The notes under the pieces are model-generated. The model was given only the letters and a program-made list of their open reading frames with translations, was not told where the DNA came from and did no database searches. Both the position numbers and the translations under genes were made by a program. From Candidatus Komeilibacteria bacterium (lineage in GTDB: Bacteria; Patescibacteriota; Patescibacteriia; UBA1558; UBA10009), in NCBI GenBank assembly GCA_026396575.1, contig JAPLWM010000016.1:1-63755 (forward strand): a stretch of DNA of 63,755 bases. The letters run 5' to 3'. Below are positions 53,595 through 61,554 of the stretch, piece after piece; positions within the stretch are counted from its first letter, which is position 1, and each line of letters begins with the position of its first letter.

Positions 53595-53765
53595 AATGTT
53601 ACCGGTGCGTTTAATGGCCGTGCTTCCTACGCCAGCTTCTGGTCTTCCTTGCAGGATGAGGCTTTGTATACTTGGTCCCGGCTCTTGTACGTCAATTATT
53701 CTACCGTCTTTAGGGATACATTTAGTAAGAACTTCGGCTTCTCTGTAAGGTGTTTAAAGGATTGA
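53595..53765 (+). other. DGR variable region VR1 (putative)
   Basis: FWSS..Q....W.R.L......V.R....K..GFSVRCLKD scaffold; colinear 171 nt with VR2. Confidence 0.75.
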
Positions 53766-53786
53766 TTTGTCTATTTTTCTATTTTT

Positions 53787-61000: not shown

Positions 61001-61554
61001 GCGTTACTGCCGCCTGCACCGGCCACATAGGTGAAACCTTAGCCATAGATGGCGTTAGCTGTTACTGTGAAACAGCTGATTACGCTTCCTGCCAGCTTAA
61101 CGGAGTTAATGGAACAATCCAAAAGTATTGCTATAACAACACCGCTTCAATGTGTACTGCCGAAGGCGGATTATATGAATGGCAACAAACAATGAATTTG
61201 GCTTCTTCCTGCGCCCATACCAGTTGTACTCCGGCCAGCGGAAATCAAGGTATTTGCCCTGCTGGCTGGCACATTCCTACGGATGCCGAATTTAAAACTT
61301 TGGAAATGAACCAAGGTATGAGCCAAGCCCAGGCAGATGCCACAACGATGTTACCGGTGCGTTTAATAGTCGTTCTTCCTACGCCGGCTTCTGGTCATCA
61401 TCCCAGTATAGCGCGTCGTATTCGTGGCTCCGGGACTTGTACGTTAGCTACTCTACCGTCTTCAGGGGTCCCCATTTCAAGTACTACGGTTTCAGTATTC
61501 GCTGTATTAAGGACTAGCTTGTCTATTTTTCTATTTGTCTATTTACCCTGTTAA
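55099..61554 (+). CDS. Membrane-anchored DUF2341 plus 7 LamG plus Fib_succ_major protein (DGR target 2); C-terminus frameshifted by a net 106-nt loss near 61342
   Basis: TM, WHYRQ...DLRFTD..LLDYW, seven W(S/K)(F/M)DE or YNFEE LamG starts, lectin-fold N-half; VR lies in another frame ending TAG at 61517. Confidence 0.88.
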   Translation: MPNIINLKKSNNRKSAGGAGAVGVAKNVGDTNVGAQHVVPLPPKPPLFISASRPRLFPSFLRRGQGVVVSPPRLGGVRGGRNRWVIGAAIFVALIVLISSFFIFKHNTQTTQAAAWFNDEWHYRQQFDVFNASTTEDLIDFQVEMSTSTLALRTAWSAGKLRNDFKDLRFTDSAGNLLDYWFIDATSTMMSVYVKMPSMPKNATSTVMMYYGNPSAPDKRDGNKVFPDFFDDFSDGTYAAGPRPWTVSSGAYSVAGTDKYLVNGTAGRISTPSTKAYGTWEFNWYKGADTNNEIVGFISDRVGWVNSFQGYSACLQDGNGRFYILKNNIGSNNNLIVTGVNYIAISTWYRFKITRTTAGIFTAYIKGGVYGNSTWTTIGTATDNTYTTSAYLFNYSNVFNASDRIDNILWRKFATTDPRVVATAGTSEETGGGPVGYWSFDEGFGATVYDRSGMGNHGALTNMSTTGTSTAWTTGKVNKALQFDGVNDYVNVGNVNKTVNSVGFWLNAKNLTKDIIDFDGGTHYITVSGGTLSATGFTSPTIYVNGKAGTRIQANNWHYITVTTATGFTSNNLKFGLKTSYFQGSLDEIKIYNYVLNNSQIKTEYNRGVSAKLSISPSSEQDIYQGLVGWWKMDEATTTWDGAGDRVNDYSGIGNHGTASGDAHATITAKYGNAAEFDGTDDYITIPSGATLAGKTQITVSAWVYADDFGVTSCIYCEQTSTAGNDRLGLYVNTNGKVVLTYRDSSKDPAGTATSLTGNATLSAATWYYITGVYDADTDKQIIYINGTEDKKATVLISGFGSSVANAIRIGDLNGDNEWDGYLDDVKIYGIARPPDQIMADYLQGPGPIASYNFEEKSGLTVNDISGFGHTGTITKGASKGFVKGRVGRAYDFDGANTKIDTGSDWIGTGNITISAWVYARSYGENTLNTLGTIISNGSMHLLLNGSTYYVPNNNTIIFFNSSGYANAPANSIKLNTWYHIVGTRSSAGISKIYLNGVYQNFSNNVNALGTSNVIIGARSALGYSFAGQIDDLKVYNYVLTPWQIAQEYNGGKPTAQWSFDEGQGAIANNIFAAMPGTLAGTLTNMSTTGTSTAWTTGKFGKALLFDGIDDTVTVTDGTGSGMDITSAGSLSAWVKPTSISGTKYIIDKDQNSAYALLLSGANVKGYFGNSSCNGGVVKANEWSYVSVAWDGAYIRCYLNGVEVNKTAYSTALTPQNTSLYLGSDGGAANWFKGIIDEPKVYQYALSPVQIKKDYNDGLAVDLGTFDGGQNAQNGLIGWYKMDEATTIWDGNGDMVNDYSGNNNYFTAQNHAHATTTAVYGNAAEFDGTDDGLNRSGLGPTIGGATQVTVETWVNARSFTGTPYIYIEQNSSGQGDSRLSLNLSTTGKVRMQFSDYVRDAGTATSLTGNATLSLNTWYYLTIVYNADTDKQMIYINGVRDVEASNAVEGFNATSQAIRMGFVTTGYNHFNGLIDDLKIYRIARTPDQIMQDYLQGPGPIASYNFEEKSGTVLNDISGQGHNGTITKGASKGFVKGKIGRAYDFDGANTKIDTGSDWIGTKAITISAWIYADSYGEDALGRIIENGGTMGFFVNGSTYYSPNNNTLMFLNNGTLTPTPANLILLNTWYHVAVTRTVRGISKIYINGNNVATTNSGSNVAGTTNVLIGNNSGQNETFDGQIDDLKVFNYVLTPWQIAQEYNNGKPVAYYKMDEGQNKTVGDWSGNGYNGTLSLGGSPATSTAWQIQAGCKVGKCLAFDGTDDYASIGSSLTVTGEATVSAWIRPNSTSAGAQVIIGDSNSGNTTQQLSLQLNNTAGKISGKWGNSTIITSNTGLQAYQWYYVTLVRGGTTGAWTAKIYINGALDNMVTTATNPSAVSSWSIGRAGAAASGYFNGKIDDLKIYAYAQSPAQIKNDFNAGFGSYFKNEWQCGDYLVDGRDNQSYQTVTIGNQCWMAQNLNIGTQVNSPAAASVTAACTGHIGETLAIDGVSCYCETADYASCQLNGVNGTIQKYCYNNTASMCTAEGGLYEWQQTMNLASSCAHTSCTPASGNQGICPAGWHIPTDAEFKTLEMNQGMSQAQADATTMLPVRLIVVLPTPASGHHPSIARRIRGSGTCTLATLPSSGVPISSTTVSVFAVLRTSLSIFLFVYLPC
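55195..55222. repeat. 28-bp perfect GTAG palindrome in-frame
   Basis: gtaggggcacaacatgttgtgcccctac encodes VGAQHVVPL. Confidence 0.9.
55269..55340 (+). repeat. C/G-run hairpin REP in-frame
   Basis: Encodes PSFLRRGQGVVVSPPRLGGVRGG. Confidence 0.85.
61347..61517 (+). other. DGR variable region VR2 (putative)
   Basis: DVTGAFNSRSSYAGFWSSSQYSASYSWLRDLYVSYSTVFRGPHFKYYGFSIRCIKD*; shares 18-nt 3' flank with VR1. Confidence 0.75.

What the first reader, a model, noticed from the sequence alone, without database searches (positions are those of the whole stretch)
53595..61536. Two DGR-type variable regions on multi-LamG surface proteins
Both proteins end in a Fib_succ_major (C-type-lectin-like) domain, a known DGR target fold in CPR. 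Their last 171 nt align without gaps. Scaffold codons (W, R, K, Q, C, G) keep their amino acid, while ten codons differ at positions 1 and/or 2 with an unchanged third-position pyrimidine (e.g. tcc/ctc, ctc/gac, ttt/cat, aac/tac), as expected from adenine mutagenesis of AAY template codons. They also share an 18-nt non-coding 3' flank (53767-53784 and 61519-61536), an IMH candidate, and VR1 has a 9-bp GC hairpin 21 nt downstream. Some differences (tct/agt, agg/cgc, synonymous C/T) are not explained by a single template.
Basis: partly seen in the sequence, partly recalled or inferred. Interest (0 to 1): 0.8.

Follow-up and report, generated by a model that had tools for sequence, protein, structure and literature searches.

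The report
DGR variable regions lacking their retroelement
Two lectin-like protein tails carry the marks of a diversity-generating retroelement, shown by a complete element at the same place in a related genome, but here the template repeat and reverse transcriptase are missing and the genes are partly broken.

Summary

**Supports DGR descent**
- Gene 2 is the orthologue of the target gene of a complete DGR in a related genome (L008: target, avd, TR, RT).
- In L008, 21 of 22 TR/VR mismatches sit at TR adenines.

**Argues against an intact or shared system here**
- The 63.7-kb window holds no TR, no RT and no RT remnant. At the syntenic spot after avd there is a tRNA-Ser gene and small ORFs.
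- VR1 and VR2 differ at all three codon positions. Their synonymous divergence matches the rest of the domain (dS 0.68 vs 0.77), so one TR cannot serve both.
- VR2 is out of frame in this window because 106 nt are missing. avd lacks 49 nt. Gene 1 is a fragmented remnant.
- The "IMH" 18-mer lies outside TR/VR homology. The GC hairpin is a dispersed repeat with 7 copies.

**Verdict:** a new member of a known kind (Patescibacteria-type DGR with a FISUMP/C-type-lectin-like target). It is most likely an orphaned, decaying target locus. A TR/RT acting from elsewhere in the genome is not excluded.

The parts
52659..53765 (+). Gene 1 terminal ORF (368 aa, TTG start): partial LamG plus a complete Fib_succ_major (FISUMP) domain. 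It is the last piece of a fragmented paralogue whose upstream LamG pieces (51587-52539) lie in other frames.
   Evidence: Pfam PF09603 E 1.4e-35 over profile 1-187/187; PF13385. tblastn against gene 2 shows a frame switch near 52490.
53576..53765 (+). VR1: the stretch homologous to the L008 TR/VR. Codons that are AAY in the L008 TR lie between 53595 and 53726.
   Evidence: Alignment with the L008 TR and VR. 24/47 mismatches at TR adenines versus 32/121 elsewhere. 12 of the last 39 nt differ from VR2 (read directly from the alignment).
53767..53784 (+).
   Evidence: Exact 18-mer shared with 61519-61536. Related motif after the VR in L008 and before GIY-YIG in L009-L012. Outside TR homology.
53787..53817 (+). 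Copy of a dispersed 31-nt hairpin element (9-bp GC stem), followed by a promoter-like TTGACT-17-TAAAAT at 53837-53865 for the downstream ATPase gene. Not a DGR part.
   Evidence: 7 copies in the window, all on the + strand. Fold -24.9 kcal/mol. Promoter scan.
55099..61345 (+). Gene 2, in-frame part: N-terminal hydrophobic anchor, DUF2341, at least 6 LamG modules, and the first half of the FISUMP domain. Orthologue of the 2179-aa DGR target of L008.
   Evidence: Pfam. Synteny and similarity to L008 3452-9991.
61345..61346 (+). Junction where this window lacks 106 nt that are present in Logan contig L007. The gap removes the middle of the FISUMP domain and the first ~19 nt of the VR, and shifts the frame.
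   Evidence: L007 1-383 = window 60963-61345 and L007 490-1156 = window 61346-62012, both 100% identical. Translations.
61346..61517 (+). VR2, in the frame that stops at TAG 61515-61517. Out of frame with ORF 55099-61554 in this window. Codons that are AAY in the L008 TR lie between 61347 and 61478.
   Evidence: 20/47 mismatches at L008 TR adenines versus 21/121 elsewhere. 36 of the last 39 nt match the 3' end of the L008 TR (read directly from the alignment).
61519..61544 (+). Three tandem [G/T][A/T]CTATTT units 3' of VR2.
61579..61836 (+). Small GIY-YIG nuclease gene (85 aa) between VR2 and avd, bracketed by an 18-nt inverted repeat (61541-61558 / 61821-61838). Probably a mobile insertion.
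   Evidence: PF01541 E 1.3e-15. Inverted repeat I10. 91% nt identical block on the other side of avd in L021, and a 109-nt remnant in L008.
61842..62140 (+). avd (bAvd-like four-helix-bundle gene), broken in this window by a missing 49 nt between 62012 and 62013. Intact (115 aa) in L001 and L007.
   Evidence: PF22296 58.6 bits (GA 40). NF033474 'DGR protein Avd' 61.7 bits, the same level as the L008 avd at 60.5. 96.5% aa identity to the L008 avd, dN/dS 0.022/1.29. Deletion.
62141..62955 (.). The place where TR and RT lie in the relatives. Here it holds tRNA-Ser (62173-62247, minus strand), a copy of the dispersed hairpin and small ORFs. Synteny with L008 resumes at the 182-aa gene (62956-63504).

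Best explanation
VR1 and VR2 are DGR variable regions by descent.

**How such a region is made (established DGR mechanism, not tested here).** The C-terminal ~55 codons of a FISUMP (C-type-lectin-like) domain are rewritten by mutagenic retrohoming. A template repeat (TR) rich in AAC/AAT codons is transcribed. It is copied by a DGR reverse transcriptase working with Avd, which misincorporates opposite adenines. The cDNA then replaces the VR.

**Gene 2** is a giant membrane-anchored DUF2341/LamG-repeat protein. It is the orthologue of the target of a complete and apparently active DGR in a related Patescibacteria-type genome, and it is still followed by avd.

**In this genome the TR-RT half of the cassette is absent** from its usual place directly after avd, and from the whole 63.7-kb window.

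**The two VRs have diverged by ordinary point substitution** for as long as the rest of the domain, so no common TR has been rewriting them.

**Gene 1 with VR1** is a truncated, frameshifted paralogue remnant. The TR-matching 3' end of VR1 has drifted.

**In this assembly** gene 2 carries a 106-nt frameshifting deletion and avd a 49-nt one.

The most likely reading is an orphaned DGR target locus in decay.

**Shown:** homology, synteny, the adenine pattern in relatives, absence of TR/RT in the window, and the frame breaks. **Inferred:** loss of the system rather than relocation of TR/RT.
For: - **Complete DGR in a relative (L008).** 2179-aa DUF2341/LamG/FISUMP target, avd 97% identical to the one here, TR, then RT carrying YVDD. 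TR/VR mismatches: 21/47 at adenines, 1/121 elsewhere.
- **That DGR appears active.** L015 differs from L008 over 2585 nt only at the two adenine positions of TR codon 43. L009 and L010 VRs also differ from each other while their flanks are identical.
- **Window VRs against the L008 TR.** Mismatches are enriched at adenines (p 0.0012 and 0.0034).
- **avd.** PF22296 scores above the gathering threshold; NF033474 is the best NCBIfam hit.
- **No TR in the window.** The best third match to either VR is about 41% identity. The L008 TR matches only VR1 and VR2.
- **No RT in the window.** None in Pfam scans of all ORFs of at least 100 aa. tblastn with three DGR RTs gives nothing better than E = 0.46.
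- **Synteny.** The L008 177-aa gene matches window 63034-63517, so TR-RT is missing between avd and that gene.
- **Divergence.** dS is 0.675 in the VR versus 0.768 in the upstream 411 nt. dN is 0.27 versus 0.059.
- **Frame breaks.**
- **VR2 is 100% identical in the window and in L007**, from another sample.
- **L007 crosses VR2 unbroken**, although it does break at the only 31-mer that genes 1 and 2 share. This argues against a TR sharing 31-mers with VR2 in that sample.
Against: - avd is intact in Logan contigs from several samples and has been under very strong purifying selection (dN/dS about 0.017). Loss of the system is therefore either recent, or TR/RT are elsewhere.
- Only 2.2 kb lies downstream of VR2 in the window, and the rest of the genome could not be searched.
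- Non-adjacent and remote DGR targets are documented (PMC5758913).
- Contig L001 (SRR20698651) ends at 61498, inside the 3' end of VR2, where no repeat in the window explains a break. This could reflect VR2 alleles in that population.
- The two deletions may be assembly artefacts or rare variants, since independent contigs lack them.
- Identical VRs across assemblies are also seen in the active relative: L008, L016 and L017 share the same VR.
Confidence: 0.55

Rival explanations
1. The DGR is alive but split. TR and RT lie elsewhere in this genome and diversify VR2 in trans, using the avd encoded next to the target. The deletions in the window are assembly errors or a minor variant. VR1 is still a relic.
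For: - avd is intact in L001 and L007, with dN/dS 0.022/1.29 against L008.
- Gene 2 is in frame in L007.
- 36 of the last 39 nt of VR2 match the L008 TR 3' end, where TR and VR must match (read from the alignment).
- L001 breaks at 61498 without any repeat to explain it.
- Remote targets are known: 45 of 372 DGRs (PMC5758913).
Against: - In every related locus examined, TR and RT lie within about 0.6-1 kb of avd, or the contig ends at the TR boundary (L008, L015, L016, L009, L010, L018, L019, L021).
- L007 runs through VR2 without a break.
- No RT more than 81% identical to the L008 RT was found other than L008-type sequences themselves, although the window organism is present in at least 16 Logan samples.
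- VR2 is identical in two assemblies.
Confidence: 0.33
2. One TR serves both VR1 and VR2.
For: The two VRs align without gaps. 13 of 28 positions 1/2 of the AAY-equivalent codons differ. The 3' flank motif is shared.
Against: - 33 of 140 sites outside the AAY positions 1/2 also differ.
- 19 differences are at third codon positions and 11 codons differ only synonymously.
- dS within the VR (0.675) equals dS of the flanking domain (0.768).
- A single TR would need adenines at all 48 differing sites, including third positions, which would create stop-prone codons such as TAA.
- The last 39 nt of VR1 differ from VR2 at 12 positions.
Confidence: 0.02
3. No DGR was ever involved. These are two paralogous lectin domains whose ligand-binding tails diverged by ordinary mutation and diversifying selection.
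For: dS is the same inside and outside the VR while dN is raised. No TR or RT in the window.
Against: - Orthology and synteny with a target whose VR has a TR with adenine-only mismatches.
- avd lies directly downstream.
- Window VR mismatches to that TR are concentrated at its adenines.
- The variable codons of VR2 are 18/20 NNY and encode only residues reachable from AAY (read).
Confidence: 0.03

Closest known systems
DGR of the related genome GCA_964520395.1 (contig CAZFOL010000004.1, locus L008; the same element in L015-L017)
   Same: - Orthologous giant DUF2341/LamG/FISUMP target ending in the VR.
- avd 97% identical.
- Same VR register, with the TR's AAY codons falling on the window's variable codons.
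- CTATTT repeats after the VR.
- The same downstream 177/182-aa gene.
   Different: - L008 has the TR (about 10751-10921) and the RT (10977-11837, continued in another frame to 12216) directly after avd. The window has neither.
- L008 has only a GIY-YIG remnant after avd. The window has an intact GIY-YIG before avd.
- The window carries an extra fragmented paralogue (gene 1) and an ATPase gene upstream.
DGR target category 'd' / CLec2 VRs (DUF1566, DUF823, Fib_succ_major), exemplified by Legionella LdtA (Wu et al. 2018, PMC5758913)
   Same: - The VR overlaps a Fib_succ_major / Lcl_C (DUF1566) match at the extreme C-terminus of a surface protein with conserved cysteines.
- The best PDB fold match of the modelled domain is the Legionella Lcl C-terminal domain.
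   Different: - The host is a Patescibacteria-type organism, and the N-terminal extension is exceptionally long, built of LamG modules.
- The fold match is weak (E 0.058, TM 0.22/0.37).
- No TR or RT accompanies the target here.
Bordetella phage BPP-1 DGR (mtd-avd-TR-brt), the prototype
   Same: Gene order target(VR)-avd, as in the prototype. The VR sits at the 3' end of a C-type-lectin-fold gene. The AAY-based template logic is seen in the relatives' TR. Prototype features are from established knowledge.
   Different: - No GC-rich IMH or VR-specific hairpin.
- In this clade TR/VR identity ends at the stop codon, and an AT-rich CTATTT repeat follows the VR.
- The setting is chromosomal and non-phage.
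- TR and brt equivalents are absent from the window.

Membership tests
Diversity-generating retroelement (DGR) | A DGR-type reverse transcriptase encoded with the element | tested here: not met
   No RVT_1 hit in any window ORF of at least 100 aa. tblastn with the RTs of L008, L009 and L014 against all six frames gives best E = 0.46. Present next to avd in relatives. The rest of the genome could not be tested.
Diversity-generating retroelement (DGR) | A template repeat: a second copy of the VR that differs from it essentially only at TR adenines | tested here: not met
   No third copy on either strand. The best other match is about 79/190 identities, and no site has few non-A mismatches. The L008 TR matches only VR1 and VR2 in the window. 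Met in L008: 21/47 A sites versus 1/121 non-A sites.
Diversity-generating retroelement (DGR) | Adenine-specific substitution pattern in the VR | tested here: inconclusive
   This could only be tested against the relative's TR. VR2: 20/47 at A versus 21/121 at non-A (p 0.0012). VR1: 24/47 versus 32/121 (p 0.0034). There is enrichment, but on a background of 17-26% ordinary divergence.
Diversity-generating retroelement (DGR) | Accessory variability determinant (Avd) gene | tested here: met
   The intact 115-aa version (L007) scores 58.6 bits on PF22296 bAvd (GA 40). On NF033474 it scores 61.7 bits (cutoff 80), the same as the avd of the complete L008 DGR at 60.5 bits. In the window itself the gene is interrupted by a 49-nt gap.
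Diversity-generating retroelement (DGR) | VR at the C-terminus of a C-type-lectin-fold (or Ig-fold) ligand-binding domain of the target protein | tested here: met
   PF09603 Fib_succ_major E 1.4e-35 (gene 1) and 5.2e-31 (gene 2 from L007). Weak Lcl_C/DUF1566 hits. This class is a documented DGR target category (PMC5758913). AlphaFold model pLDDT 93. The top PDB fold hit is the Lcl C-terminal domain, but only at E 0.058, so fold-level support is weak.
   In L008, TR and VR are identical up to the stop codon and diverge immediately after it. The CTATTT flank is therefore outside the TR homology. The TR-matching 3' segment lies inside the coding region: VR2 keeps 36/39 nt of it, and VR1 differs from VR2 at 12/39.
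Diversity-generating retroelement (DGR) | Between-sample or within-population variation confined to TR-adenine positions of the VR | tested here: inconclusive
   VR2 is 100% identical in the window and in L007. Only two assemblies cover it, and three of four assemblies of the active relative also share one VR. Positive controls: L015 versus L008 and L009 versus L010. Reads are not available.

The most novel reading that the evidence does not exclude
A split DGR. The target and an avd under strong purifying selection stay together while TR and RT act from a distant site. In this reading, the small GIY-YIG nuclease and the conserved CTATTT tandem motif that recur next to VRs in this Patescibacteria/Peregrinibacteria DGR clade form a target-site module, for example supplying the nick that primes cDNA synthesis, whose source is not established for DGRs. 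Counter-evidence: GIY-YIG is only a decayed remnant in L008, whose DGR still appears active, and its position relative to avd varies. This makes a selfish insertion more likely.
Probability: 0.08. Interest if true: 0.7.

Novelty: new member of a known kind. Interest (0 to 1): 0.35.

Why it matters
DGRs with FISUMP/DUF1566-type targets are already well documented, including in CPR bacteria, so the system itself is not new. The locus is useful as a natural example of what remains when a DGR loses its TR-RT half:
- VR codons frozen in a diversified state
- an avd that is still conserved
- a relic paralogous VR
- early inactivating deletions

It also shows that VR-like signatures can be recognised from sequence alone and then validated through a relative's TR. 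If reads showed adenine-site heterogeneity in VR2, this would instead be a CPR DGR with avd separated from TR-RT, which would bear on how Avd, RT and target sites find each other.

Tried and rejected
1. **Search for a TR in the window.** I scanned both strands by identity and by non-adenine mismatch count, and found only VR1 and VR2.
2. **Exact 20-mer scans of public collections.**
   - ATGTTACCGGTGCGTTTAAT: 0 hits in genome contigs. The 2 hits in metagenome contigs were unrelated genes, i.e. chance matches.
   - AAGTACTACGGTTTCAGTAT: 0 hits in genome contigs.
   - Neither this genome nor L008 is in those collections.
3. **Homologues of the FISUMP domain.** The best hit is only 50% identical, and the window's own proteins are absent from the protein collection. 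No close VR alleles could be retrieved that way.
4. **RT homologue search** for an RT from the same samples as the window organism. Apart from L008-type sequences, the best is 81% identical. The two Logan hits I checked come from other samples and carry no TR resembling VR1 or VR2.
5. **Exact look-ups of the partial C-terminal products.** The gene 1 219-aa suffix is not on record.
6. **PDB sequence searches** of the FISUMP domain and of avd gave nothing significant.
7. **NCBIfam** has no DGR-specific RT model. The relatives' RTs hit only generic RT families, below their cutoffs.
8. **Hairpin after VR1 as a DGR cruciform:** rejected, because it is a dispersed element and VR2 has no counterpart.
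9. **avd as a generic '23S rRNA IVS' four-helix-bundle gene:** rejected. It scores far better on the bAvd and DGR-Avd models than on PF05635 or TIGR02436, and its close homologues sit beside RTs.
10. **Literature link between GIY-YIG and DGRs:** none found.
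Full report
**1. What is in the sequence**

ORF 52659-53765 (368 aa, TTG start) carries a partial LamG and a full-length Fib_succ_major (FISUMP) domain (PF09603, E 1.4e-35, profile 1-187/187). ORF 55099-61554 (2151 aa) carries DUF2341, at least six LamG modules, and a FISUMP match covering only profile positions 1-96.

The last 171 nt of the two frames, 53595-53765 and 61347-61517, align without gaps at 72% identity. 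Scaffold residues are kept. However, the differences are spread 17/12/19 over the three codon positions, and 11 codons differ only synonymously.

The 18-mer TTGTCTATTTTTCTATTT follows both stops and occurs nowhere else in the window except as an overlapping match. The 9-bp GC hairpin after VR1 is real.

**2.

*VR2 is out of frame.* The 2151-aa ORF crosses the VR2 region in another frame and ends at 61554. An independent Logan contig, L007 (ERR15302175), is 100% identical to window 60963-61345 and 61346-62012 but has 106 extra nt between them. With those 106 nt, gene 2 is in frame, has a complete FISUMP domain (E 5.2e-31) and stops at TAG 61515-61517.

*A second gap breaks a downstream gene.* The same contigs (L001, L002, L007) have 49 extra nt between window 62012 and 62013. 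These two deletions are the only differences over about 2.8 kb. I cannot tell whether they are real variants or assembly errors.

*Gene 1 is a remnant.* LamG homology upstream of the 368-aa ORF lies in other frames, with a frame switch near 52490. Perfect 141-nt and 84-nt direct repeats lie in 50.6-52.5 kb. There is no N-terminal anchor or DUF2341.

*The hairpin is a dispersed repeat.* It is one of seven copies, all on the + strand, of a 31-nt element (3689, 36294, 50776, 51546, 53787, 55307, 62394). Here it is followed by a promoter-like TTGACT-17-TAAAAT for the next gene. It is not a VR-specific structure, and VR2 has no counterpart.

**3. Test of a shared template**

| Block | dS | dN |
|---|---|---|
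| 411 nt upstream of the VRs (85% identical) | 0.77 | 0.059 |
| Terminal block | 0.68 | 0.27 |

 Synonymous divergence is therefore the same inside and outside the VR, and only nonsynonymous change is raised. A TR that rewrote both VRs would have erased synonymous differences at non-adenine sites.

No third copy of the VR exists on either strand of the window. No RT is found by Pfam in any ORF of at least 100 aa, nor by tblastn with three DGR RTs (best E 0.46).

**4. The decisive comparative evidence**

The gene broken by the 49-nt gap (61842-62140) encodes, in its intact form, a 115-aa four-helix-bundle protein.

| Model | Score (bits) | Cutoff (bits) |
|---|---|---|
| PF22296 bAvd | 58.6 | 40 |
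| NF033474 'DGR protein Avd' | 61.7 | 80 |
| PF05635 | 32 | 33.8 |
| TIGR02436 | 17.7 | 24 |

Its 97%-identical homologue lies in locus L008 (GCA_964520395.1). The gene order there is: a 2179-aa DUF2341/LamG/FISUMP protein, avd, a 96-codon Asn-rich repeat of the protein's C-terminus, then an RT with YVDD. The avd of that complete cassette scores the same sub-cutoff 60.5 bits on NF033474.

L008 is syntenic with the window on both sides. The upstream giant gene matches window 49795-50445. The target matches gene 2. The downstream 177-aa gene matches 63034-63517.

In L008, TR and VR differ at 21 of 47 TR adenines and at 1 of 121 other positions. The element appears active. L015, from another sample, differs from L008 over 2585 nt only at the two adenine positions of TR codon 43. 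VRs of a more distant member (L009 vs L010) also differ from each other while their flanks are identical.

Further relatives have avd next to an RT (L009, L010, L018 and L019, plus L015 and L016, which are the L008 element itself). L021 ends exactly at the TR boundary.

**5. The window VRs against the relative's TR**

| VR | Mismatch at TR adenines | Mismatch at other sites | p |
|---|---|---|---|
| VR2 | 20/47 | 21/121 | 0.0012 |
| VR1 | 24/47 | 32/121 | 0.0034 |

Both VRs therefore bear an adenine-mutagenesis imprint on top of ordinary divergence. Five AAY-equivalent codons encode the same residue in both VRs (AAT, TAC, TAT, TAC, TTC/TTT). This fits descent from one already diversified VR, followed by drift. 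It could also reflect selection for those residues.

36 of the last 39 nt of VR2 match the L008 TR 3' end. VR1 differs from VR2 at 12 of those 39, so VR1 could not be served by a VR2-type TR.

The 18-mer is nevertheless part of a tandem [G/T][A/T]CTATTT motif that also follows the VR in L008 and in L009-L012. Its role is unknown.

**6. What is missing here**

Where L008 has a GIY-YIG remnant, TR, RT, a LamG scrap and a DUF559 gene between avd and the 177-aa gene, the window has 815 nt holding tRNA-Ser (minus strand), a copy of the dispersed hairpin and small ORFs.

The window's intact GIY-YIG gene sits between VR2 and avd and is bracketed by an 18-nt inverted repeat. In L021 a 91% identical block sits after avd, and in L008 only 109 nt of it remain. 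It behaves like a mobile insertion.

**7. Interpretation**

- **DGR descent of both VRs is well supported.** My estimate is about 0.95.
- **Whether anything is still being diversified in this genome is open.**
  - For decay: no TR or RT in cis, unlike every relative examined. Gene 1 is fragmented. Gene 2 and avd are broken in this assembly. VR2 is identical in two assemblies. L007 runs through VR2 unbroken, although it breaks exactly at the only 31-mer shared by genes 1 and 2. This last argument assumes Logan's k = 31 graph, which is my own knowledge.
  - For a living, split system: avd is intact in other samples and has dN/dS of about 0.017 against L008. Remote targets are documented (PMC5758913). 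L001 ends unexplained at 61498, inside the end of VR2.
- **My estimates:** orphaned/decaying about 0.55. Trans-acting TR/RT serving VR2 about 0.33. A single TR for both, or no DGR at all, a few percent each.

**8. Comparison with known systems and novelty**

This is DGR target category 'd' (DUF1566/DUF823/Fib_succ_major, CLec2 VRs; PMC5758913), in a Patescibacteria-type genome. The taxon is inferred from the source names of the best homologues.

An AlphaFold model of the gene 1 domain is confident (pLDDT 93). Its best PDB fold match is the Legionella Lcl C-terminal domain, but only weakly (E 0.058).

The defining features RT and TR were tested in the window and not met. I therefore file the locus as the target-plus-avd part of a DGR (a new member of a known kind), not as a complete DGR.

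Noticed in passing
window 3689, 36294, 50776, 51546, 53787, 55307, 62394 (each 31 nt, + strand): A dispersed element, CCCCTCCTAGATTAGGAGGGGTTAGGGGAGG, with a 9-bp hairpin. All copies have the same orientation. At two sites it is followed by a TTGAC-17-TAAAAT promoter-like sequence. It is read through as 'PPRLGGVRGG' in the N-terminal extension of ORF 55099, so that ORF's true start is probably further downstream. Logan contigs break at it.
   Followed up: partly
window 61345|61346 and 62012|62013: Two clean deletions (106 nt and 49 nt, no obvious microhomology) relative to Logan contigs from other samples that are otherwise 100% identical. Both fall in DGR-related genes (target and avd), and both shift the frame. 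Whether they are real variants or assembly artefacts is unresolved.
   Followed up: partly
window 61541-61838; L009 1595-1849; L021 1697-1954; L008 10421-10529: A small (85 aa) GIY-YIG nuclease gene recurs inside DGR cassettes of this clade, but at different positions: before avd here, after avd in L021, decayed in L008, after the target in L009-L012, downstream of the RT in L018. Here it is bracketed by an 18-nt inverted repeat. No paper in the library links GIY-YIG with DGRs.
   Followed up: partly
window 53767-53784, 61519-61544; L008 9995-10020; L009 1557-1572: A tandem [G/T][A/T]CTATTT motif is conserved just 3' of VRs across distant members of this DGR clade, outside the TR/VR homology. 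Function unknown.
   Followed up: partly
window 50634-52543: Perfect direct repeats (84 nt at 50634-50717 = 51449-51532; 141 nt at 51688-51828 = 52359-52499) and a 22-nt G-rich tandem repeat (50687-50761) surround an NYN-domain gene and the gene 1 fragments. These could be recent duplications or assembly collapse.
   Followed up: no
L001 left end = window 61498: A Logan contig from SRR20698651 ends inside the last 20 nt of VR2. No repeat in the window explains a de Bruijn graph break there. Position 61497 is an A that is also A in the L008 TR. This could hint at VR2 alleles in that sample, or it could simply be a coverage drop.
   Followed up: partly
L008 10977-12216: The RT of the relative's DGR is split into two overlapping ORFs (286 aa plus 136 aa, with the frame changing near 11806-11837) in four independent assemblies. 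Yet its VR varies between samples at TR adenines.
   Followed up: no
window 53903-55024: An AAA_14/DUF4143 ATPase gene sits between the two VR-bearing genes. It is absent from the syntenic region of L008, and its 1.4-kb Logan contig is seen in 16 samples.
   Followed up: no
window 26284-26357 (minus strand) and 33146-33541 (minus strand): ARAGORN calls a tRNA with an unusual 4-base anticodon (acaa); Rfam confirms a tRNA at that place. A tmRNA lies next to smpB.
   Followed up: no
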